Part shown: piece by piece, positions 3,345-11,474 of the stretch
Position numbering within the stretch: the stretch's first letter is position 1
How the letters are laid out: each line of letters opens with the position of its first letter
Assembly (NCBI GenBank): GCA_048882385.1
Contig: JBHLRQ010000094.1
Span: 1-11,474, forward strand
DNA: 11,474 bases
Source: Candidatus Thorarchaeota archaeon
Lineage (GTDB): Archaea > Asgardarchaeota > Thorarchaeia > Thorarchaeales > Thorarchaeaceae
Direction: 5' to 3'
Program-made: the position numbers and the translations under genes
Notes under the pieces: generated by a model
What the model was told of the DNA's origin: nothing
Database searches by the model: none
Seen by the model: only the letters and a program-made list of their open reading frames with translations

Positions 3345-3477
3345 AAGTAGGTCTAGTCATAATCCCTATAATATCATCTGATAGTCAATGTGTGGTGTTT
3401 TGAACAAGATGTTACATTCGAAAAGCAATCAAGTGGAAAATGAATAGTGTGAGAATGATGATTGCACTGAGAGAAAG

Positions 3478-3509
3478 TGGCGCCCCCGCCGGGACTTGAA
3501 CCCGGGTCT
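3478..3509 (-). repeat. tRNA-Asp 3'-end fragment, copy 3 (att-like)
   Basis: Minus strand reads AGACCCGGGTTCAAGTCCCGGCGGGGGCGCCA, 30/32 identical to tRNA bases 3858-3889, followed by CTTTCTC. Confidence 0.92.
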
Positions 3510-3513
3510 GATT

Positions 3514-3720
3514 ATGCCTATTGATTAGTCCCCTAGTGAAACTATACTTAGTAATAGGGCTGCAGATATTCATGGACAGTACTCGAAGATTAGATGTGCA
3601 TTAGCATTTCCACCCAACCATCCACAGAAATCAAGCCGAAGTGAGAATTTCCTTCGCTCTCAGAATCTGGATGATGTAATGATGATTGGAGAACAGTTGA
3701 AGAATGAAGGAATTCTCTAG
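3514..3720 (+). pseudogene. Possible gene remnant next to repeat copy 3
   Basis: ATG at 3514, in-frame TAG at 3526, then 63 open codons (SPSETILSNRAADIHGQYSKIRCALAFPPNHPQ...EQLKNEGIL) to TAG at 3718-3720. No family recognised. Confidence 0.25.
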
Positions 3721-3751: not shown

Positions 3752-3781
3752 GAAAATCGACTTTGCTCCAACCGAACCGCA

Positions 3782-3889
3782 GCCCCTGTAGTGTAGTACG
3801 GTCAATGCTGTAAATGTTCTACAGTATCCGGATTAGCATTCAAGACTGTCACTCTTGAGACCCGGGTTCGAATCCCGGCGGGGGCGCCA
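3782..3889 (+). tRNA. tRNA-Asp(GTC) with ~30-nt D-loop intron and encoded CCA
   Basis: Acceptor stem GCCCCTG/CGGGGGC, discriminator G plus CCA, anticodon arm CAAGA-CT GTC AC-TCTTG (anticodon 3848-3850), T arm CCGGG-TTCGAAT-CCCGG. Mature length is about 78 nt after intron removal. Confidence 0.95.
3804..3833 (+). other. Non-canonical (D-loop) tRNA intron with relaxed bulge-helix-bulge motif
   Basis: 8-bp helix ATGCTGTA(3805-3812)/TACAGTAT(3820-3827), central helix ACGG/CCGG (3 of 4 pairs), 3-nt bulges TCA and ATT. Removal restores ...CGGTCTAGCAT. Boundaries may be off by 1 nt. Confidence 0.8.
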
Positions 3890-3895
3890 CTTTTT
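3890..3895 (+). terminator. Oligo-T archaeal terminator of tRNA-Asp
   Basis: CTTTTT immediately follows the CCA. Confidence 0.55.
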
Positions 3896-3905
3896 GACTC
3901 ATGTA

Positions 3906-6900
3906 CTAGTAATAATCAATTACCACTCCCTTGTTTTCAAACGCATCTTCTACCTCTCTCAAGATAGATTCTATTGTATCCTTGCTTACCTTACGATCTC
4001 TTAGATTGAGCTTGACTTCTTGCTTGATGAAGTCAAAAGATATCGATTGGTTCTTTGCAATTTCAGATGATACTGATACTACTATCACCTCCTCAAAGTC
4101 AGTTTCGTCATCTACATTGCACAGATGTGCAATCGCATCCAAAGATCTCTGACGTGAAGATTCCTCCACATGTACTCTGACAAACCTAAGTTCTGGTGCT
4201 GAATCATCAATTTCGAACACTTCGTCATCAATCAGTTTTGACTCTTCCAATTCAGCTGATTCAAGTTCGTCTATTTCCCCAATTATCGAGTTTTGAATTC
4301 GTGGATAATCAGAGAGGAGATGAACCACTCTAAGACTGACAAGAGCCTTTGAATCAATCGTGACATCACACCTTTTCCCGGAATCCGAGTCCACAAGTTG
4401 TCTAGACTCTGCCAATAGAGCTATATCGAATATCCCCATGTCCTCCATCTCAAGACCAATCAGATGTCCTCTTCCCTGTAGTCCATCCAGCTGGATCTTG
4501 AGACACTTCTTGTAACCTCGGTCCTTTCGTTGTTCATCGACTATTATTCTCAGAGTTATGTCTTCACCAGCTTTGGTCATCAAGAAGTCCTCACAGGTCA
4601 GAGGTAATTTGTAGCTGTCTGAATAGAACGAGTATCTGTGGATGAGTGGCTTGAACACTGACAAGTGATAGAAGTCATACTTCCCATCTCTGTTCTTGAG
4701 TTTCACTTCATCATACTCGATGTCTTTCTGAGCATCCCACTTGAGGTATGTGCCGTCTGCAGTCGAAAAGTACTCTCCAATTCTCTGGGGGTATCTGAGG
4801 AATCTGATCACCTCATCAGTATACTGAGTTTCCTTCTTTGCTATGGTCTTTGAGCCTTCATTCAGGTCAATCCTGTAGACCTTTTTTTCAGGGTCAAGGG
4901 TAAGGAAACATGAAACCTCTCTTACCACACCGCTCCACTCAGCAGCCTCTTTTAGCACTTCGTCACACTCTGTTTCGATATCAGAGTAAAAGGAACTTGG
5001 CTTGTACATGTTCAAGGCTACAAGAGTTCCGGGTGACGGTTGTGACAGTCTGATCCAACGTACAGGTTGATTCTGCCCCTTTGGAGGATTTCCGTACTCC
5101 AACAGACCATTCTGAACCCATTCTTCCTCGCCCTTTGTGTAGAGCACGTGTTGTTTGTTCATAAAAACAAGAACAATCGGATATTCCACCCACCCCTCTC
5201 TTGACAAGGCACTTTTTGCACTCTTCGAGAGTTTTTGAGGATCTATCTCACCTCTATACCACCCATAGCGAAGAATGGCACTCATCTGCTCCTCCAACAA
5301 CGCACCAAATATAGTCTTCTTGATTGAAGAAAACAATAGCCAGATACTGCCACCATCACTCTTCTCTTGAAAGAGCAATAGTCCGTGTTGTTCAGGAAAT
5401 CTTGTGGTTGTTTGCGAAGTTGTCTTCTTCATCTGTTTTGCCCTCCATGTGAGATTTGAGTGGATTGCTTGAAAGTCATACCTGTGTTCGAATTCTCCGT
5501 CATCCTGTTGCCTGAAACCAATCTGATAGAGCTGCCATCGTGCAACTGATGACCATAGATTGTTACAATGAGGGGACTCTGCATCTCTTAGGACTCTAGT
5601 TGCTACATCAAGTACTCCAAGAAAGAGATTCATTCCATAGAGATCCATGAGTTCAGGATTATGACCCAATGCTTGTTTCAATGTCCTCAGGTCATCAGAG
5701 TTCAATAGGTTTCCAAGATTCAACCTGTCATTGAGGAGAAGTGTCCAGAGACGCTGAGTTTCAGTTCTGCGAAGAATGGCCTCCCTGACTTGAGTGAGAA
5801 TTTCCAGTAGATTCTCCTCAGTAATAGTTTCGTTGTTGTCATAAGTACAGAGTGAAACGATCTTTCTGTAGAGAGAGCGATAGGAAGTTGGTCTCTTACT
5901 GAGGAACTCAGCAGCGTATGACAACCGTAGGACTTCTCTTCGTCTGGTATCAATCGTATCGATATGAGATGATTCAGATGAATAAGTAAAAGCTGGTCTT
6001 CGGGTGATTGTTACTGATTCTTCTTCCTCTTCGTCAGTTTCTTTATGAATCCACCCTCGTGTGATGGACTTTGCCTCAACATAGATCCCCTCATGACCAG
6101 TTCCTATTCGGTTTGGATGCGGTGGCTCTCTATTCACATCAAGATGCAGTCTGCTTGATAGACTTGGTTGAACACTGTTTGCATTGACACTGTGAAAGGT
6201 CGTTGACCAATCAACATTATGTTTATTGACCAGACTCAGTGGTTGTCCATCTCTAGGTCTGAGAAGACTTGGAATCAGGATGAATGCATGCTTTGTAATT
6301 TCTTCCAAGGAGATCATGTCAATAGTGTCAGAACGCACCTGGATGGATGAACTTCGAAAAGACCGTCCATGCATGTTTTTATGTTGATTCAGATCACCAG
6401 TTTGCCTCTCGATTTTGACAATAGGACTTCTAACGGAAGCCTTGCTGAACTTGCGGCTCAGACCCTTGAGATGCGGTACATGGATGACCGTGGACCATGG
6501 ATCTTGTTTTGTTGGTAGGTCCTGAATGATCACTCGACTGTCCTCATACTCCGGGATCTGCCACCCCATCTTTCGAGGAGCTGTGGGCACATTCCATAGA
6601 ACCTCGTCAATGACTTGTTTCCTGGGAGATTTGTAGTAGAATGGACTTGGACTGTTCCGTTGATAGAGCTCGGAAACCTGTGGAAGGTCAACTCCTGTAT
6701 CAGTCCAGATCACCTCGTTCATGAGATTCTTTACAATCTGAAGCAGTGAAAGTTCAAGCACCTGTAGATTGTTCCTATGAGTCATAGGAGTCATATTCTC
6801 CAAGTCCGACCAGCCATCCACAACTGCAATTCGATTCTCTGACTCAGATTGAAGAGCTGCAGTGATTGCAGACTTCGCTTTCTCGATTCCTGATTGTTTC

Positions 6901-8999
6901 CCGTTGATGAGAAATCCATCAATATCATTTCTAAGACTGACAAAGGTGACTCTTTCTAACAGTCTTCTCAGTCTTGCATATTCTGGATTCGTAATCAGCT
7001 TGTTCTTCTTTAGATCCTCAAGTCCAAATCGTTTCTCTATCAGTTTCTTTGTTGGAAAATCACCGATTAGATCAATCCAAGTCAAAGAAGTTTCTGTGTT
7101 TGCAACCTGTTCAAGCTCTGCAAGGTGGTTCAAGAGATGCCAGTTCTTGGCAAACCATGTTGCACTCTTGCCAAATGATGTTGGAGATGATAGTGAAATG
7201 TACTGAGTGAAGAAGGTGTCATCCTCCACTCTATCTACAAAGGGGTCTTCGAATAGAACATCTTTGAGGGGATTGATACGTTTTAGTACATCCACAGGAC
7301 CTTGTGCTGGAGTCATTGTAACGGCTACTCGAGGAGCTATCTGTTCTGTAGACTTGTCTTTGAATTTGAGTGACTTCCACTGTCCCTTGAATTCTCCTTT
7401 CATTATTCGATTAGCCAGGTCGGAGATGATGTAATCGAACGCTCGCTTTGTGTCTTCGTAGTCTTGAGAAACATCAAGTGTGACCACTCCCTTCCAGAGT
7501 TCTTTGAAAGCAATAGTTTCACCGATGATTGAATGGTACTCTGATAACAGGGCATTCTCATATGCATCTATCTGGTCAAGATGGATTTTAGGGGGCTTTG
7601 AACCAAGTGTTTCACCCCATTCTGATGTCTTGAGAGGTTCTTTCCAAGCGTTCAAGACTGGTGTGAAGACATTGGATTTTTTCGTACGAGGACGTTTTCC
7701 AAATAGGTTGAAGTCGAATCCAGTCTTGGTCTTCACCTCAAGAATCATGATGGGCGCCCAGATATGGCTACCACGCCAACGAATACGAACAAAAAGGACA
7801 AGGTCTATCTTTCCTGATTCTTGAGTTCCAGTGACTGGAACTTCAGCAAAATACTGAAACCCAGAAGGAGTCTGAAGGAGATGGTCTCCAGCAAAGATAG
7901 CCTCTTTGAGTGAGTGAGGTTGAGGATATCCAGAAAGCAACACTCTGTGCCAGTTGTTCCCTTCTAGTTGTACGCTCCTCATGATGTTTTCAAGGAACGT
8001 TTCCACTTCTCTGTGTGTGACGATTCTTCTCTCAATGTGCTGAAGAATTATCCTACATTTCTTCTTGGTTTTTCTGTCTTCTGAGTTTTCTTGTATTGCT
8101 TCAACCTGTTCTTTGAGAGCATCTATTCCAAAACCTTGAGGAACATCTTCGACCGGTTTACTCATTCTCTCTCTAGTCCCAATGTGTCTGCTGTAGTTGT
8201 TCCTGATTTCAAGTACAATCTTTCTCAATTCCCTGTCTGCGCCGGGGGAGAAATCCTTGCGACCTGTCTTTCCTCGTGTGTACACCCAATCGAGAAATGG
8301 GGTCAGTCTATGAATCAACAGTCTAATGTATCGATGTGACTCAGTTCGAGGTACACAATGGATGAAGCATTGTCGACAGAGCTCAATGAGATGAGCTCGT
8401 AGCATATCTCCAAAGTCCATGGCTGGTAGTGTAGGATGTGTAAGTAACACTCGAGGATTCTTAGAGTTGCCTCGATATCCCGCTTTCAAGTGAGTCTTCA
8501 CCCCAAGTGCTGCTGGGACCTTGGCCGCTACATCTTTTGGAATGACTTGCTCTGTTCCATCTGGATATTCTCGGATCTCGTAGAGCTGTGGGGTTGGGAA
8601 TGTATAACGTGGAACAACGATATCTCGTAGTGTTGCTCCAGCATAATTCAGTAGACTATTGAGTTCTCCAATGGTGCCCTCTTTCCAGCTGTATACTCGC
8701 CTCCTCTCTTTGTTGCCGTATCGTTTCGTGCTAAGCCAGAGCATACGTAGATTCAGCTTTCTGAGGTGGGATTCTATCTTCTGAACTTTAGAGAAATCAT
8801 GCGGGCGGCTTGATCCGTCCATTTTCTTATTCACTTGGATAGATTTCCATTTGTTTCTAATTTTTTCAAAGATTTCTTCTGTCTGTCTATTCTTTCGTCT
8901 ATTTGCTAACCAGACTAGAGCTGATAATCCTGAATAAAGTGCAGTAGCTAGAACTACATTCGGTCTGAATTCCTGAGTTCTTCTCCCCAAATAGGACAC
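3906..8999 (-). CDS. Large multidomain protein: PD-(D/E)XK nuclease domain + degenerate P-loop NTPase-like domain + long unknown C-terminal region
   Basis: 1697-aa uninterrupted ORF. Nuclease motifs E386, GKID399, ILE421VK423 and Q476IDAY480 (RecB/Cas4-like QxxxY). Walker A-like SSPTSFGK611S and Walker B-like RIAVVD728G. The true start may be ATG at 8822 (MDGSS). Confidence 0.8.
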   Translation of the reverse strand: MSYLGRRTQEFRPNVVLATALYSGLSALVWLANRRKNRQTEEIFEKIRNKWKSIQVNKKMDGSSRPHDFSKVQKIESHLRKLNLRMLWLSTKRYGNKERRRVYSWKEGTIGELNSLLNYAGATLRDIVVPRYTFPTPQLYEIREYPDGTEQVIPKDVAAKVPAALGVKTHLKAGYRGNSKNPRVLLTHPTLPAMDFGDMLRAHLIELCRQCFIHCVPRTESHRYIRLLIHRLTPFLDWVYTRGKTGRKDFSPGADRELRKIVLEIRNNYSRHIGTRERMSKPVEDVPQGFGIDALKEQVEAIQENSEDRKTKKKCRIILQHIERRIVTHREVETFLENIMRSVQLEGNNWHRVLLSGYPQPHSLKEAIFAGDHLLQTPSGFQYFAEVPVTGTQESGKIDLVLFVRIRWRGSHIWAPIMILEVKTKTGFDFNLFGKRPRTKKSNVFTPVLNAWKEPLKTSEWGETLGSKPPKIHLDQIDAYENALLSEYHSIIGETIAFKELWKGVVTLDVSQDYEDTKRAFDYIISDLANRIMKGEFKGQWKSLKFKDKSTEQIAPRVAVTMTPAQGPVDVLKRINPLKDVLFEDPFVDRVEDDTFFTQYISLSSPTSFGKSATWFAKNWHLLNHLAELEQVANTETSLTWIDLIGDFPTKKLIEKRFGLEDLKKNKLITNPEYARLRRLLERVTFVSLRNDIDGFLINGKQSGIEKAKSAITAALQSESENRIAVVDGWSDLENMTPMTHRNNLQVLELSLLQIVKNLMNEVIWTDTGVDLPQVSELYQRNSPSPFYYKSPRKQVIDEVLWNVPTAPRKMGWQIPEYEDSRVIIQDLPTKQDPWSTVIHVPHLKGLSRKFSKASVRSPIVKIERQTGDLNQHKNMHGRSFRSSSIQVRSDTIDMISLEEITKHAFILIPSLLRPRDGQPLSLVNKHNVDWSTTFHSVNANSVQPSLSSRLHLDVNREPPHPNRIGTGHEGIYVEAKSITRGWIHKETDEEEEESVTITRRPAFTYSSESSHIDTIDTRRREVLRLSYAAEFLSKRPTSYRSLYRKIVSLCTYDNNETITEENLLEILTQVREAILRRTETQRLWTLLLNDRLNLGNLLNSDDLRTLKQALGHNPELMDLYGMNLFLGVLDVATRVLRDAESPHCNNLWSSVARWQLYQIGFRQQDDGEFEHRYDFQAIHSNLTWRAKQMKKTTSQTTTRFPEQHGLLLFQEKSDGGSIWLLFSSIKKTIFGALLEEQMSAILRYGWYRGEIDPQKLSKSAKSALSREGWVEYPIVLVFMNKQHVLYTKGEEEWVQNGLLEYGNPPKGQNQPVRWIRLSQPSPGTLVALNMYKPSSFYSDIETECDEVLKEAAEWSGVVREVSCFLTLDPEKKVYRIDLNEGSKTIAKKETQYTDEVIRFLRYPQRIGEYFSTADGTYLKWDAQKDIEYDEVKLKNRDGKYDFYHLSVFKPLIHRYSFYSDSYKLPLTCEDFLMTKAGEDITLRIIVDEQRKDRGYKKCLKIQLDGLQGRGHLIGLEMEDMGIFDIALLAESRQLVDSDSGKRCDVTIDSKALVSLRVVHLLSDYPRIQNSIIGEIDELESAELEESKLIDDEVFEIDDSAPELRFVRVHVEESSRQRSLDAIAHLCNVDDETDFEEVIVVSVSSEIAKNQSISFDFIKQEVKLNLRDRKVSKDTIESILREVEDAFENKGVVIDYY

Positions 9000-9165
9000 T
9001 CCAGCTATTCCTTTTCAATTTTATTTATAAGTATTTCATACTTATTCAGAAGTCTATAATTTATAAAAATAGCCTTATCAGTTTTTATTTTCTTAATTAA
9101 AGGATTTATAATATATTTTCATAATAACTTAATAAGGAAACTTGTATGATAAATCTATGAGTTAA
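9000..9165. promoter_or_regulatory. Very AT-rich divergent promoter region containing the self-target 9126-9140
   Basis: Several TATA-like boxes (TTTATAA 9060, TTTATAAT 9105, TTAATAA 9129) lie between two head-to-head genes. Confidence 0.65.
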
Positions 9166-9168
9166 TTA

Positions 9169-9236
9169 CTCCAATTCTAGACAAAGATTGGAGTGAACTC
9201 AACTGACCTGAAACAGGTCAGAACTTAATAAGGAAA
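9169..9236 (+). ncRNA. Candidate leader/tracr-like RNA with built-in 15-nt guide
   Basis: Hairpins CTCCAAT/ATTGGAG (9169-9193) and CTGACCTG-AAA-CAGGTCAG (9203-9221). Bases 9186-9214 are complementary to downstream repeat 1. Bases 9222-9236 are identical to 9126-9140. Confidence 0.55.
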
Positions 9237-9245
9237 GACAAAGCG

Positions 9246-10922
9246 ATGGCTCGGTCCAAGGGTGTGACAATCTCGGTTAAGGTCCCAATCAACTGGGAAG
9301 CCATGACCGAGAGGACTAAGCAGAGACTTAGGCAGACCATTGGGCGAGACACCAGAGTGATACGTGCATTCCTTGGAATTATTGAACAACATGAAGACAA
9401 GTTGTTGACAGGTCGTAAGAAAAATCGGATTGATGAAGGTGAGCTGGATAAGCTCACTATGACTGCACTCCAAGTCAAGGCGGGCTATAGTCAGAGACTG
9501 ACCGTACCTCATGACTTCAAGGCGAGGTTCCCTCGAATATCTCAGAACGAGATGACCGAGTGCAGACAGACTGCAGTTTCTTTGTATGAGAGTTATCTTA
9601 AGCTCAGAATAAAGAATGGATTGAGAGCTTCTCGCCCTGCATCAATCAATAGAAGTCGACGTATTCCCAGATGGGTCTTTGCTCAACGATTCAGACTTGT
9701 TGAAAAACGTACATCTTCAGCCCGCTGGTGGCTAGACATCAGGGATTCTCTTGACTCCGTACAGGCTGGACGTACATTTCACGATAGATTAGTCATTCCA
9801 TTGAAGGTTTCACCCTTTCACCTGAATCAACTCCACCGTGGAGATGTAAAGGCTGTACAGATCTTCACTGATCGATTCAGAAAGTGGTGGGTGACAATGG
9901 CTGTCAGGGTAGCGGTTGATGACTTCCACAAGAGTGAGCTTCCTGCAGCGATACTTGGAATAGACCTCGGCATTGAAAAGGCCGCATGTTCAACTCTTCT
10001 GACTCCAGAGAAGACGAGGGAAACAAGATACTTCATCCAAAAAGAGAAGGTCAAGGTCATCAAGAAGTACGATGGACTTGTCGCCGACCTGCAGAGGAAA
10101 ATGCACCTCCGCAGAGACAACGGAAAACCTCATGATAAGATGGCAGTAAGGCTCCGACAGATGAAGAGTAAGAGGGAGAATGTAGCCAAGGAGTATGATA
10201 GAGTTCTAGTTCGACAACTCCTTGATTACATCTCCACACTGTCCAAGAAATACACACTCTATGTTGCCATTGGTCGCCTGAAGAATATACGAATGCGTGC
10301 CAGAAGAGGAAACTATCAAGGTTCTAGGTACCGGGCCATGATACATTCATGGGCTTTTGCCCGGATAACCGATAGTCTGAAACATGGACTTGCTCAGCTC
10401 GGTTGGAAGGTTGAGGGAAAGGACTCGAGGTTCCGTGCAGTTCCTGAGGCTTGGACTTCCATCATGTGCTGGAAGTGTGGAAGCAGGGGTAAGAGACCCA
10501 AACAGAACTATTTCCACTGTCCATCCTGTGGTCACAAGACCAACGCTGATAGGAATGGTAGTATCAATATTGCTGCACGCATGCTTAAGCTCACAAAGTC
10601 ACTGCACTCTGTGAGAGGACTAGGTATGTGGACTAGAGCTCTAGATGGAGTTCGACGTGCACGACCAAAAGCTCAAGAGAAACAACTTTCTCAAGGGAAG
10701 TCCTTACTCTCTTTTAAGGATCAAACATCAGATCTTGGAGAGTCCGCGGCTGTTCACCATACTCAGATGAGTCTTCTCAGCTTCAGCGATGAATCTGGGA
10801 AGGGTGATGATGACCCCGCCGTGGTAAGTACTGTGGAAACTCTTGCTGTCGTTGGAAGTGATGATCCGACATCAGTACAGGAGAAAAAAGCCAGGTCTTC
10901 AGGAGGGATTCCATCCCGATGA
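9246..10922 (+). CDS. tnpB: TnpB/Cas12f-like RNA-guided RuvC protein with rearranged catalytic site
   Basis: RuvC-I ILGID240LG; RuvC-II position YVAIG343RL (Gly instead of Glu); alternative Glu in VPE401AWTS; zinc ribbon C408/C411/C425/C428; RuvC-III NAD435RNGSINIA; ~115-aa C-terminal tail. Confidence 0.88.
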   Translation: MARSKGVTISVKVPINWEAMTERTKQRLRQTIGRDTRVIRAFLGIIEQHEDKLLTGRKKNRIDEGELDKLTMTALQVKAGYSQRLTVPHDFKARFPRISQNEMTECRQTAVSLYESYLKLRIKNGLRASRPASINRSRRIPRWVFAQRFRLVEKRTSSARWWLDIRDSLDSVQAGRTFHDRLVIPLKVSPFHLNQLHRGDVKAVQIFTDRFRKWWVTMAVRVAVDDFHKSELPAAILGIDLGIEKAACSTLLTPEKTRETRYFIQKEKVKVIKKYDGLVADLQRKMHLRRDNGKPHDKMAVRLRQMKSKRENVAKEYDRVLVRQLLDYISTLSKKYTLYVAIGRLKNIRMRARRGNYQGSRYRAMIHSWAFARITDSLKHGLAQLGWKVEGKDSRFRAVPEAWTSIMCWKCGSRGKRPKQNYFHCPSCGHKTNADRNGSINIAARMLKLTKSLHSVRGLGMWTRALDGVRRARPKAQEKQLSQGKSLLSFKDQTSDLGESAAVHHTQMSLLSFSDESGKGDDDPAVVSTVETLAVVGSDDPTSVQEKKARSSGGIPSR

Positions 10923-11474
10923 ATGTTGACAACGCTCTTGCTAATTTTGGCAAATTCTTTTGGATTTTGCTAGGAGGTGGTGACACTGGCAAGAGAGGGG
11001 CGGAACACAGAGGTTTCTTTCAGTTGTGGTTCACTCACAATCTCAGAAGCAGGTCATACACTACAGGGGCTCGGGTACTATGATTGAGCATAGAGGTTAT
11101 TTGCAGTTGCGGAACACACACAATATCAAAAGCAGGTCATGATGTTCACTCACTTTGTGGAATAGGTTATGCTAGATCGGACTTCACTTGGTATAGCATA
11201 GTATTAGATGAATGAGTGAATCATTCTGATAGGTCATGGAGTAACATCTAAGGACTTGTTCTAAATCCCACCTAGTGTTACGGAGATATAGCTCACTAAC
11301 CAACAGCCTGAGTAGTTGTGAAAAGATTACAGAGTAGATTTATTACCATCCGAGCCCTATAGAAGAGTGGCTCACAGAGCCAAGCTGCCCCTAGACCTTA
11401 CTCCATTTCTGTGTTTTATCGCAACCCTTTTATGGCTACAGAATTCCCCGTCCTTTGCTCAGACAGAACTGCTT
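10923..11474 (+). ncRNA. Candidate large structured ncRNA/guide region downstream of the tnpB-like gene (may extend past the window end)
   Basis: No substantial ORF. Many stems: 10935-41/10989-95, 11002-14/11405-17, 11067-74/11350-57, 11145-52/11213-20, 11168-74/11194-200, 11236-44/11398-406, 11368-82. AGGT(C/T)AT recurs. Confidence 0.55.
11009..11140 (+). CRISPR. Mini-array-like unit: two imperfect 49-bp direct repeats around a 34-nt spacer that matches the tRNA-Asp gene
   Basis: Repeats 11009-11057 and 11092-11140 match at 40/49 positions and both end in AAGCAGGTCAT. Bases 11057-11071 are the exact reverse complement of 3781-3795. Not a canonical CRISPR array. Confidence 0.55.

What the first reader, a model, noticed from the sequence alone, without database searches (positions are those of the whole stretch)
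9122..9236. Second guide in the 5' leader matches the system's own promoter region (possible autorepression)
Seen: AACTTAATAAGGAAA occurs at 9222-9236, directly after the hairpin ending in CAGGTCAG (same handle as the downstream repeats), and again at 9126-9140, overlapping a TATA-like TTAATAA. The hairpin CTGACCTG-AAA-CAGGTCAG resembles a natural anti-repeat/repeat fusion. Known: short-match guides repress promoters without cutting, for example Cas9 tracr-L. Inference: a natural single guide in the effector's leader gives negative feedback on one or both divergent genes.
Basis: partly seen in the sequence, partly recalled or inferred. Interest (0 to 1): 0.85.

Follow-up and report, generated by a model that had tools for sequence, protein, structure and literature searches.

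The report
Leader guide matching its own promoter
An Asgard-archaeal TnpB-type (RNA-guided nuclease family) gene carries, in its own 5' leader, a small folded RNA followed by 12-15 bases copied from its own TATA-box promoter, a pairing kept in dozens of diverged copies, which looks like a built-in RNA-guided brake on its own expression.

Summary
AACTTAATAAGGAAA stands at 9126-9140 and 9222-9236, the second copy directly after the hairpin that ends CAGGTCAG.

The gene (9246-10922) encodes a 558-aa TnpB/Cas12f-like protein of Candidatus Thorarchaeota. A roughly 1700-aa gene of unknown family is read divergently from it.

In 46 of 52 homologous loci, the 12-15 nt after the handle GGTCAG repeat a sequence 92-118 nt upstream. 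That sequence holds a TATA-like box and is preceded by CTTAAT.
- The 46 loci carry 33 different 12-mers.
- 27 of these equal their target and 6 differ by one base.
- Non-cognate pairs reach 12 matching bases in 0.9% of cases.
- A second subfamily (45-50% identity) keeps the design in 10 of 11 loci.

The 65-nt leader folds into two hairpins (mean z -4.4). Its last 13 nt resemble the end of the 3' guide-RNA scaffold.

Best reading (about 0.6): a natural short guide in the 5'UTR steers the protein onto its own TATA/BRE, giving autorepression like CreR or tracr-L.

Not shown here: transcription of the leader, the TAM, binding of the protein to the leader, and repression itself. The 'downstream repeats' are tandem remnants of the 3' scaffold, not a CRISPR array.

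This is a new variant of a known kind.

The parts
9120..9125 (+). 5' flank of the target (CATAAT here; family consensus CTTAAT). It is a candidate TAM and overlaps the expected BRE position.
   Evidence: over 43 distinct pairs, T at -1 in 43/43, T at -4 in 43/43, A at -2 in 39/43, A or C at -3 in 41/43. TTAAT at this offset in 0 of 27 (TTTAWAWA) and 0 of 154 (TTTAWA) TATA-like sites upstream of crude ORFs in the same genome.
9126..9140 (+). Target copy of the 15-mer. It contains the TATA-like box TTAATAAG (9129-9136) of the putative promoter of the tnpB-like gene.
   Evidence: The TATA-like 8-mer lies 28-31 nt before the conserved TA(C/T)GAG, the putative start of the leader RNA.
9157..9221 (+). 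Leader scaffold RNA (65 nt). It has a long stem P1 (9158-9201, with a variable inner hairpin) and hairpin P2 (9203-9221) that ends in the handle CAGGTCAG.
   Evidence: MFE -29.1 kcal/mol, z -5.6, 0 of 200 shuffles as stable; the same architecture in 45 of 45 leaders, mean z -4.4, 44 of 45 below -2, 44 distinct inner hairpins. Covariance model R1: one hit in the own genome and one per locus in 52 loci, always just upstream of the ORF.
9222..9236 (+). Guide-like copy of the 15-mer, directly 3' of the handle.
   Evidence: It is unpaired in the predicted fold. Mean unpaired probability of nt 1-13 is 0.74 over 45 leaders.
9236..9245 (+). Shine-Dalgarno-like stretch and spacer before the ATG (AGACAAAGCG here; AGGCGAA or GGTGA in relatives).
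   Evidence: Alignment A2. The guide start lies 21-29 nt before the ATG.
9246..10922 (+). tnpB/cas12f-like gene, 558 aa.
   Evidence: Pfam PF07282, E 1.8e-13. NCBIfam guided_TnpB, 83 bits, below its cut-off of 100. PDB TnpB 9nzp, E 1.1e-10. More than 120 clusters at 71-89% identity; those that carry a name are nearly all named Candidatus Thorarchaeota.
10816..11057 (+). 3' scaffold (omega-RNA-like). It runs from the end of the ORF to the conserved end ...GAAGCAGGTCAT. The 5' limit is approximate.
   Evidence: conserved in relatives up to (A/G)GGT(C/T)A(T/G), after which the flanks diverge; a remnant of just this part on contig C147; exact RNA-library contigs over 10602-10984.
11058..11071 (+). 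14-mer ACACTACAGGGGCT after the scaffold end (position of the 3' guide). It is an inverted copy of 3781-3794, the 5' end of a tRNA-like gene.
11086..11170 (+). Second partial scaffold copy (11086-11140; 80% identical to 11003-11057) and third partial copy (11141-11170).
3906..8999 (-). Divergent partner gene, about 1694-1697 aa, family unknown. A homologous long divergent ORF is the neighbour in most related loci.
   Evidence: No Pfam, PDB or Atlas match.
3782..3890 (+). tRNA-like gene (anticodon arm reads GTC) with an irregular 5' part, 16 nt from the stop of the partner gene.
   Evidence: Rfam tRNA hit at 3824-3886, 29.7 bits. ARAGORN finds none. Sequence.

Best explanation
The 5' leader of the tnpB-like mRNA is a natural, compact guide RNA. 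It consists of a two-hairpin scaffold that ends in the same roughly 13-nt handle as the element's 3' guide-RNA scaffold, followed by a short (12-15 nt) guide.

The guide is identical to the non-template strand of the gene's own BRE/TATA region 96 nt upstream. That region carries a conserved 5' flank (CTTAAT-like) that would serve as the TAM.

Proposed mechanism (inferred):
1. Once enough protein is made, it binds the leader.
2. The guide pairs with the promoter DNA.
3. The bound complex blocks TBP/TFB, so transcription falls.
4. Because the Shine-Dalgarno sequence follows the guide directly, binding of the leader may also hinder translation.
5. The match is short, which in TnpB and Cas12 enzymes allows binding without cutting.

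Shown here: the sequence pair, its co-variation, the conserved leader structure, the shared handle and the conserved target flank.

Inferred: transcription from the upstream TATA, loading of the leader RNA into the protein, TAM function, and repression.
For: 1. Co-variation.
- 46 of 52 loci have the pair.
- There are 33 distinct guide 12-mers; 27 are identical to their target and 6 differ by one base.
- Four-way variable position 3 agrees in 43 of 43 pairs and position 12 in 41 of 43.
- Agreement decays to background at position 16 (7 of 43).
- Non-cognate pairs reach an exact prefix of 12 or more in 17 of 1802.

2. The design persists in a subfamily at 45-50% protein identity. 10 of 11 loci (L112-L121) have 11-14 nt matches, read by eye. 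It recurs in 19 of 22 leaders found in loci L083-L111, many of which are the same records as before.

3. The match begins exactly at the handle/guide border.
- The target is preceded by T at -1 and T at -4 in 43 of 43 pairs.
- The guide-encoding copy has G at -1 in 43 of 43. This is the asymmetry expected of a PAM/TAM system that spares its own guide DNA.
- The flank is not a general companion of TATA-like motifs in this genome (0 of 27 and 0 of 154).

4. The leader is a conserved structured RNA found only in front of these genes. Its last 13 nt resemble the end of the 3' scaffold.

5. Geometry.
- The TATA-like box of copy 1 lies 28-31 nt before the conserved leader start.
- The TATA-like box of copy 2 starts about 18-26 nt before the ATG (guide start 21-29 nt before it), closer than the 28-31 nt spacing seen at copy 1, so it is badly placed to drive the ORF.

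6. Nine copies in one MAG carry nine different 12-mers (record titles; guides).

7. Precedent.
- CreR steers Cas12a to a PAM-flanked, partly complementary site at the cas12a promoter (bioRxiv 10.1101/2023.03.10.532045, section 10 read).
- ISDge10 TnpB with a 10-nt guide binds without cutting, and with a 20-nt guide it cuts (PMC13507860, abstract and passages).
Against: - No RNA evidence for the leader. The only RNA-library contigs that matched exactly cover 10602-10984. No transcription start is mapped.
- Apart from the last ~13 nt, the leader scaffold does not resemble the 3' scaffold, so whether the protein can load it is unknown.
- The TAM of this family is unknown. The one other place in the window that matches a 3' guide (3781-3794) is preceded by TACT, and C at -2 occurs in 0 of 43 leader targets.
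- The near-perfect identity (27 of 33) could also come from a copying mechanism rather than selection on pairing.
- Six loci keep the scaffold and guide but have no matching upstream copy. In five of them the upstream copy is simply absent, and in L024 it is degenerate. All six lack the long partner ORF.
- The canonical RuvC-II glutamate is glycine (invariant in 14 of 14). The literature describes this change as a rearranged, probably still active site (PMC10691335, section 8). The protein may therefore cut, which would make a self-target risky.
- The loci come from MAGs and are related to each other, so the counts overstate the number of independent events.
Confidence: 0.6

Rival explanations
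1. The two copies are DNA sites for an RNA-independent DNA transaction that needs two identical cores. One example is recombination between direct repeats that removes or restores the 96-bp leader cassette (a switch). Another is a target-site duplication left by insertion of the leader cassette.
For: - They are direct repeats of 12-15 bp, a length like the duplications made by Cas1-type integrases (recalled, not from a call).
- The module sits among tRNA-gene pieces and repeats typical of integrating elements.
- Identity is almost perfect (27 of 33 distinct 12-mers), as a copying mechanism would give.
Against: - The cassette is homologous and in the same place in all loci, so it entered once.
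- Duplications made once would since have diverged independently, as the spacer between the TATA box and the leader start has (alignment A2). Instead, both copies changed together many times.
- No locus of this clade lacks the cassette while keeping a single copy.
- The sharp start at the handle, the conserved structured RNA and the shared handle are left unexplained.
Confidence: 0.12
2. Both copies are protein-bound promoter elements. Copy 1 drives the leader-containing mRNA. Copy 2 is a second TBP/TFB site (an internal promoter, decoy or roadblock). On this reading no guide RNA is involved.
For: - Both copies hold a TATA-like box with purine-rich bases before it.
- Solo copies that lost the upstream promoter still keep copy 2.
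Against: - The general transcription factors give no reason for co-variation at the non-consensus positions 3 and 11-13.
- Copy 2 starts about 18-26 nt before the ATG, closer than the 28-31 nt spacing seen at copy 1, so a start would be expected inside the ORF.
- A Shine-Dalgarno-like GGTGA/GGCGA between copy 2 and the ATG argues for a leadered mRNA.
Confidence: 0.08
3. The leader guide is real, but it directs cutting or nicking rather than repression. Possible purposes are transposition, copy-number control by self-destruction, or starting recombination at the junction between the two genes.
For: - Two of the three RuvC residues are kept, together with a candidate replacement glutamate (E401 in VPEAWTS, invariant; literature).
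- The family is multi-copy and contigs often break at it.
- Solo copies begin about 10 nt before the leader start.
Against: - The match is held at 12-15 nt and never extends further, although nothing in the promoter spacer forbids a longer match. Short guides bind without cutting in a studied TnpB.
- Cutting its own promoter in every generation would be costly.
Confidence: 0.1

Closest known systems
CreR (Cas-regulating RNA) of type V-A, I-B and I-E CRISPR-Cas (Liu et al., bioRxiv 10.1101/2023.03.10.532045; abstract and section 10 read)
   Same: - A degenerate copy of the guide-RNA handle is followed by a short or partial guide.
- The guide matches a PAM-flanked site in the effector's own promoter.
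- The effector then represses itself without cutting.
   Different: - Here the effector is a TnpB-family protein of an archaeal, apparently mobile module, not a CRISPR-Cas system.
- The guide sits inside the effector mRNA's own 5'UTR, directly before the ribosome-binding site, not in a separate small gene.
- The target is an archaeal TATA/BRE.
- The match is contiguous (12-15 nt) from the handle.
tracr-L, the natural single guide RNA of Streptococcus pyogenes Cas9 (Workman et al. 2021; seen only as summarised in PMC8730458)
   Same: A natural fused guide with a short match to the cas promoter turns the nuclease into an autorepressor.
   Different: - It belongs to Cas9 (type II), in bacteria, and is derived from the tracrRNA.
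- The match is about 9-11 nt.
- The leader here is part of the effector's mRNA, and its hairpin only mimics a repeat/anti-repeat stem.
TldR, TnpB-like nuclease-dead repressors (bioRxiv 10.1101/2023.11.30.569447 and later papers; search listing and abstracts only)
   Same: A TnpB relative is guided by an RNA to a promoter and represses transcription.
   Different: - TldRs have lost RuvC residues or are truncated. They use the 3' guide RNA and regulate other genes (flagellin, transporters).
- Here two RuvC aspartates are kept and the zinc finger appears intact by eye.
- The guide is a second, 5' one, and the target is the gene's own promoter.
aCas1-associated TnpBs of Asgard archaea (Cas1H-Asgard-1 and -2; Altae-Tran et al. 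2023, PMC10691335; passages and section 8 read)
   Same: - The host is Asgard.
- The tnpB has a conserved partner gene.
- The conserved GTTCACTCA motif lies downstream of tnpB.
- The locus is flanked by repeats.
   Different: - In the passages I read, that paper describes only the region downstream of tnpB. It does not describe a leader guide or a promoter match. Its supplementary figure S4 could not be seen.
- I could not confirm that the partner gene here is a Cas1 homologue.
Arc repressor of IS605-family elements (bioRxiv 10.64898/2026.09.24.754181; abstract and one passage read)
   Same: It is a transposon-encoded brake on the tnpB promoter.
   Different: Arc is a DNA-binding protein, not a guide RNA, and it is found in bacteria.

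Membership tests
TnpB/Cas12 superfamily (RNA-guided RuvC nucleases) | TNB/zinc-ribbon domain and RuvC fold detectable by profile | tested here: met
   Pfam PF07282, 50.9 bits against a cut-off of 26.3. PDB TnpB 9nzp, E 1.1e-10 over residues 111-445. NCBIfam guided_TnpB, 83.1 bits, below its cut-off of 100.
TnpB/Cas12 superfamily (RNA-guided RuvC nucleases) | Canonical RuvC catalytic triad D-E-D | tested here: not met
   D240 (GIDLG) and D435 (NADRN) are invariant. The RuvC-II position is G343 (YVAIGRL) in 14 of 14 sequences. The literature calls E-to-G a rearranged site with a compensating glutamate. E401 is a candidate for that role, but this was not tested structurally.
TnpB/Cas12 superfamily (RNA-guided RuvC nucleases) | Guide RNA scaffold overlapping the 3' end of the gene and ending at a variable flank | tested here: met
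   The conserved scaffold runs to about 135-145 nt after the stop and ends (A/G)GGT(C/T)A(T/G), after which the flanks diverge. RNA-library contigs cover 10602-10984. No Rfam family matches.
Autoregulatory natural guides (CreR / tracr-L type) | Handle related to that of the cognate guide RNA | tested here: met
   The last 13 nt of the leader and of the 3' scaffold are alike. In the window they read TGAAACAGGTCAG and AGAAGCAGGTCAT. The family consensus reads GAAAcgGGTCAG and AGAAatAGGTcAt. The rest of the scaffolds differ.
Autoregulatory natural guides (CreR / tracr-L type) | Short or partial guide matching the effector's own promoter | tested here: met
   15 nt in the window. 12-15 nt in 46 of 52 loci, with co-variation.
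Autoregulatory natural guides (CreR / tracr-L type) | Target flanked by the effector's PAM/TAM, which is absent from the guide-encoding DNA | tested here: inconclusive
   A conserved CTTAAT stands before the target and GGTCAG before the guide. The flank is not generic to TATA-like sites. The TAM of this protein is unknown, and the flank overlaps the expected BRE.
Autoregulatory natural guides (CreR / tracr-L type) | The guide RNA is expressed and repression depends on the effector | not testable with these tools
   No RNA cover of the leader in the three RNA runs laid. This needs start-site mapping and reporter assays.
TldR (nuclease-dead TnpB-derived repressors) | Loss of RuvC catalytic residues and/or C-terminal truncation | tested here: inconclusive
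   Only the RuvC-II glutamate is replaced. The protein is full length, and the zinc finger appears intact by eye.
aCas1-associated TnpB elements of Asgard archaea | GTTCACTCA motif in the conserved region downstream of tnpB | tested here: met
   GGTTCACTCAC at about 11027-11037 in the window and in most loci examined. The motif is quoted in PMC10691335.
aCas1-associated TnpB elements of Asgard archaea | The neighbouring gene encodes a Cas1 homologue | tested here: inconclusive
   - No Pfam Cas1 hit.
- No PDB hit.
- The AlphaFold model of residues 1-330 is poor (pLDDT 63) and Foldseek finds nothing.
- hhalign against seven canonical Asgard Cas1 sequences gives probability 0.17%.
- There is only a motif-level likeness (GPLNALLNYAGA; H..LDF.D.IR), judged by eye.
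CRISPR array | Several near-identical short repeats separated by unique spacers of similar length | tested here: not met
   There are two 55-nt copies at 80% identity plus a third partial one. They are copies of the end of the 3' scaffold.

The most novel reading that the evidence does not exclude
A TnpB-family protein of Asgard archaea, part of a multi-copy two-gene module and possibly still able to cut, uses a deliberately short guide built into the 5'UTR of its own mRNA to sit on its own TATA/BRE.

If true, this would be:
- the first RNA-guided transcription control described in Archaea;
- a natural case of the 'short guide binds, long guide cuts' switch in TnpB;
- a set of private circuits, since each paralogue carries its own guide-promoter pair.
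Probability: 0.5. Interest if true: 0.85.

Novelty: new variant of a known kind. Interest (0 to 1): 0.78.

Why it matters
Self-repression by a natural short guide is known for Cas9 (tracr-L) and for type I and V-A CRISPR effectors (CreR). RNA-guided repressors derived from TnpB (TldR) are known in bacteria.

This case would extend the principle in four ways:
- to the transposon-side ancestors of Cas12;
- to Archaea, with their eukaryote-like TBP/TFB promoters;
- to a guide embedded in the regulated mRNA itself;
- to dozens of natural guide-promoter pairs that already amount to a compensatory-mutation experiment.

It also supplies concrete material for bench work: a candidate TAM (T-N-A-T just 5' of the target), a compact 65-nt scaffold, and a protein family of about 560 aa.

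In my searches of the held library I found no paper that describes a promoter-matching leader guide for TnpB. The supplements of PMC10691335 could not be seen.

Tried and rejected
- **CRISPR array reading of the downstream repeats: rejected.** They are partial copies of the 3' scaffold end.

- **Nuclease-dead reading: dropped.** I first read the RuvC-II E-to-G change as inactivation. The literature describes this change as a rearranged, probably active site.

- **Leader-to-3'-scaffold pairing: left unexplained.** A 16-nt stretch of the leader (GGAGTGAACTCAACTG) is the reverse complement of CAGTTGAG(G)TTCACTC in the 3' scaffold. Locus-specific extension of this complementarity was weak (cognate 21.7 against non-cognate 19.6, sd 3.7).

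- **Formal covariation of the leader helices: undecided.** The outer P1 and P2 helices are too conserved for the test to decide (87.7% of cells paired; covariation score reached by 12 of 500 shuffles). RNAalifold on the MAFFT alignment found only P2 and a trivial hairpin. The inner hairpin is misaligned by MAFFT, so for it I relied on single-sequence folds.

- **Structure of the 3' scaffold: no result.** Its MFE is no better than shuffles (z -0.06). A closing helix between GUGAC(A)CUG and the handle was considered by eye but not supported.

- **RNA evidence for the leader: none.** Three metatranscriptome runs of one study held only small shares. Exact contigs covered 10602-10984 only, and there was no cover of the leader. 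This says nothing about absence.

- **Other targets of the guides: none.** The other 3' guides (the C147 orphan and the window's second and third) have no match longer than chance in the own genome.

- **Identity of the partner protein: not resolved.** Pfam, NCBIfam, PDB by sequence and by profile, the ESM Atlas, AlphaFold plus Foldseek, a Pfam Cas1 search of the genome and hhalign against Cas1 all gave nothing usable.

- **Known RNA families: none.** Rfam found only a marginal tRNA hit at 3824-3886.

- **More distant relatives lack the design.** Relatives at 33-40% identity (L122-L130, 9 loci) have no leader scaffold and no duplicated TATA, read by eye. The design is therefore limited to the clade at 45% identity or more.

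Full report
**1. What is in the window**

The window is a whole 11,474-base contig (C94) of a 3.7-Mb metagenome-assembled genome.

The ORF at 9246-10922 (+) encodes a 558-aa protein.
- It has the Cas12f1-like TNB domain (Pfam PF07282, E 1.8e-13).
- It hits NCBIfam guided_TnpB weakly, below the cut-off.
- It is similar to a solved TnpB, 9nzp, with E 1.1e-10.
- Its relatives number more than 120 clusters at 71-89% identity. The named ones are almost all Candidatus Thorarchaeota, an Asgard archaeal group.

Copy number varies.
- The own genome has one full copy, plus a remnant of the last 32 codons and the 3' non-coding scaffold on contig C147.
- Other genomes hold several copies, and contigs often break at them.

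A long ORF is read divergently from it (3906-8999, minus strand, about 1700 aa).
- It has no recognisable family.
- A long divergent ORF, with an N-terminus that is homologous where I compared it, is the neighbour in most related loci. The two genes therefore form a conserved module.

**2. The observation**

The 15-mer AACTTAATAAGGAAA is at 9126-9140 and at 9222-9236. The second copy follows directly on the hairpin CTGACCTG-AAA-CAGGTCAG (9203-9221).

In the whole genome the 15-mer occurs exactly only at these two places.

All end in GGTCAT or GGTTAT.

**3. Comparison with relatives**

I fetched 75 related loci from species-representative genomes. In the window plus the 51 loci that hold the 5' end and a recognisable handle, the region before the ATG has one plan. 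In order:
- (G/T)CTTAAT;
- a 12-15-nt block of the form A-R-N-TTTAWAWA-NNNN;
- about 20 variable bases;
- the conserved TA(C/T)GAG;
- a 65-nt structured stretch ending GGTCAG;
- the same 12-15-nt block again;
- a Shine-Dalgarno-like AGGCGAA or GGTGA;
- the ATG.

The numbers are as follows.
- 46 of the 52 have at least 12 of 16 matching bases between the two blocks, 92-118 nt apart.
- Among 43 distinct pairs, positions 1-12 agree in 41-43, position 13 in 37, position 14 in 26, position 15 in 19 and position 16 in 7. The last figure is background.
- Positions 3, 8 and 11-13 differ freely between loci, yet the two copies within a locus agree.
- There are 33 distinct 12-mers. 27 are identical to their target and 6 differ by one base.
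- Pairing the guide of one locus with the target of another gives an exact prefix of 12 or more in 17 of 1802 cases.

The six loci without a match (L024, L031, L039, L045, L065, L081) still have the scaffold and the guide block.
- They lack the long partner ORF.
- They also lack the upstream block, except L024, where it is degenerate.

Further loci extend the picture.
- A second subfamily of the same taxonomic family, at 45-50% protein identity, keeps the plan in 10 of 11 loci fetched. Its handle is GGTCGG and its flank CTTCAT or CTTAAT (read by eye).
- Nine loci of relatives at 33-40% identity have neither the scaffold nor the duplicate.
- In a further 29 loci from a phylum-wide search, a pattern search found 22 leaders, and 19 of them had at least 12 of 16 matches. 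Many of these are the same records as before.

**4. The leader as an RNA**

- From the conserved TA(C/T)GAG to the handle, each of 45 leaders folds into a long stem with a variable inner hairpin, followed by a second hairpin (CUGACC-loop-GGUCAG).
- Against dinucleotide shuffles the mean z-score is -4.4, and 44 of 45 are below -2. The inner hairpin has 44 different sequences.
- For the window, z is -5.6, and the guide, the Shine-Dalgarno region and the AUG are unpaired.
- A covariance model of the scaffold finds one copy in the own genome. It finds one copy per locus in 52 loci, always directly before the gene.
- Formal pair counts on the outer helices are uninformative, because those helices hardly vary.
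- Anchored at their 3' ends, the leader scaffold and the 3' scaffold share their last 12-13 nt (GAAAcgGGTCAG against AGAAatAGGTcAt). Otherwise they differ.
- No Rfam family matches either RNA.

**5. The promoter reading**

This part is inference from what is established about archaeal promoters: a TATA box centred about 26-27 nt before the start site, with the BRE just upstream of the box.
- The TATA-like 8-mer of the first block begins 28-31 nt before the conserved leader start. The first block, with its 5' flank, is therefore the likely BRE/TATA of the gene.
- The TATA-like box of the second block starts about 18-26 nt before the ATG, since the block starts 21-29 nt before it. That is closer than the 28-31 nt spacing seen at block 1, so a start driven by block 2 would be expected inside the ORF.
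- The flank CTTAAT is not a general neighbour of TATA-like motifs in this genome. It occurs in 0 of 27 sites (TTTAWAWA) and 0 of 154 sites (TTTAWA) upstream of crudely called ORFs.
- The guide-encoding copy has G where the target flank has its invariant T (43 of 43 each).

**6. Interpretation**

The simplest account of a direct repeat with these four properties is a guide and its DNA target held together by selection:
- its two copies change together;
- one copy sits at the 3' end of a conserved structured RNA with a guide-RNA-like handle;
- the other copy is a promoter with a conserved 5' flank;
- the match starts at the handle and fades after 12-15 nt.

The protein would load the leader, pair it with the promoter and block initiation.

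Precedents exist.
- CreR does this for Cas12a.
- tracr-L does this for Cas9 (as summarised).
- A studied TnpB binds but does not cut with a 10-nt guide.

Nine copies in one MAG carry nine different 12-mers. This fits private circuits, with the caveat that a MAG may mix strains.

I give this reading about 0.6.

**7. What speaks against it, and the rivals**

The weaknesses of the main reading are these.
- Nothing shows that the leader is transcribed. RNA-library contigs matched exactly only over 10602-10984.
- The TAM is unknown.
- The leader shares only its last 13 nt with the 3' scaffold.
- The near-perfect identity could reflect a copying process.
- The RuvC-II glutamate is a glycine in all 14 sequences aligned. 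The literature treats this as a rearranged, probably active site. I therefore cannot call the protein nuclease-dead, and a self-target would then have to rely on the short match to avoid cutting.

The rivals are:
- an RNA-independent recombination or duplication site (0.12);
- a second promoter or TBP/TFB decoy (0.08);
- an RNA-guided cut rather than repression (0.10).

The first two fail to explain the co-variation together with the conserved RNA and handle. The third does not explain why the match never exceeds 15 nt.

**8. Relation to what is known**

- Altae-Tran et al. 2023 describe Asgard tnpB genes linked to Cas1 homologues, with a conserved GTTCACTCA motif downstream. The same motif is present here.
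- I could not confirm that the partner is a Cas1 homologue.
- The passages I read in that paper do not mention a leader guide, and its supplements were closed.
- Four literature searches found no description of a promoter-matching guide for TnpB.
- I therefore file the finding as a new variant of a known kind.

**9. Seen in passing**

- The 14 nt after the 3' scaffold end (11058-11071) recur inverted at 3781-3794, the 5' end of a tRNA-like gene next to the partner gene's stop.
- A close relative (L132) shows the same arrangement. Another relative (L133) has a direct 22-nt repeat of the tRNA piece 7.65 kb away.
- In several other loci the flank after the scaffold is also a tRNA piece.
- The module thus seems to sit in or beside tRNA genes, as integrating elements do.

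Noticed in passing
window 3781-3794 and 11058-11071; also 3477-3520 and 3782-3890: The 14-mer after the 3' scaffold end recurs inverted at the 5' end of a tRNA-like gene (anticodon arm GTC; Rfam 29.7 bits; ARAGORN none). That gene lies 16 nt from the partner gene's stop. A further inverted tRNA 3'-half piece lies at about 3477-3520. The two-gene module (about 7.2 kb) therefore sits between tRNA pieces.
   Followed up: partly
L132, L133, L134; flanks in L008, L018, L019, L034, L040, L044, L055, L072, L077: In relatives the flank after the 3' scaffold is often a tRNA-gene piece. L132 has the same inverted 14-mer 7.3 kb away. L133 has a direct 22-nt repeat 7.65 kb away. L143 abuts a whole tRNA-Gly gene. 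This suggests integration at tRNA genes.
   Followed up: partly
G000 contig C147:4799-5040 (L002 about 1465-1745): An orphan remnant holds only the last 32 codons of a tnpB-like gene plus a complete 3' scaffold (79% identical to the window's), followed by a different flank. It may be a stand-alone guide RNA or a decayed copy. Its flank has no target longer than chance in the genome.
   Followed up: partly
window 9191-9206 versus 11019-11036, and the same places in relatives: A 16-nt stretch of the leader (GGAGTGAACTCAACTG) is the reverse complement of CAGTTG(A/T)G(G)TTCACTC in the 3' scaffold. Both stretches are conserved across the family. Locus-specific co-variation is weak. It could be an RNA-RNA contact or an old inverted repeat of the element's ends.
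   Followed up: partly
window 3906-8999 (-): The partner protein (about 1700 aa) has no detectable family. Its family consensus shows motifs that look, by eye, like:
- a PD-(D/E)xK nuclease (IDLVLF...ILEVKTK);
- Walker A (SPTSSGKS) and Walker B (VVVDGWSD);
- near the N-terminus, the Cas1 signature (GPLNALLNYAGA; H..LDF.D.IR).

None of these was confirmed by a profile or fold search.
   Followed up: partly
window 10269-10274 region (residue G343 of the 558-aa protein); residue E401: The canonical RuvC-II glutamate is glycine in all 14 aligned family members, while D240 and D435 are kept. An invariant glutamate in VPEAWTS, before the zinc finger, may replace it, as described for 'rearranged' TnpB sites.
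   Followed up: partly
L011, L014, L018, L020, L023, L024, L049, L062, L071 (one MAG): Nine copies in one assembly carry nine different guide 12-mers. Some differ by a single base at position 3. This looks like diversification into separate guide-promoter pairs.
   Followed up: no
L024, L031, L039, L045, L065, L081: These are solo copies without the partner gene. They keep the leader scaffold and guide, but their similarity to other loci starts only about 10 nt before the conserved leader start. This may mark the edge of a smaller unit that moves or recombines on its own.
   Followed up: no
window 10602-10984: Three metatranscriptome runs of one study contain exact contigs over the 3' end of the ORF and the start of the 3' scaffold only. 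This is the region where omega-RNAs of TnpB elements usually lie. DNA carry-over cannot be excluded.
   Followed up: partly
window 11398-11474: The last 77 bases of the contig are identical to G000:C75:15865-15941 (minus strand). This is probably an assembly overlap or a repeat at contig ends.
   Followed up: no
whole genome G000: The strict TATA-like 8-mer TTTAWAWA is rare upstream of crudely called ORFs (27 sites, 25-110 nt upstream, among 2526 ORFs). The module's promoters are therefore unusually canonical for this genome.
   Followed up: no
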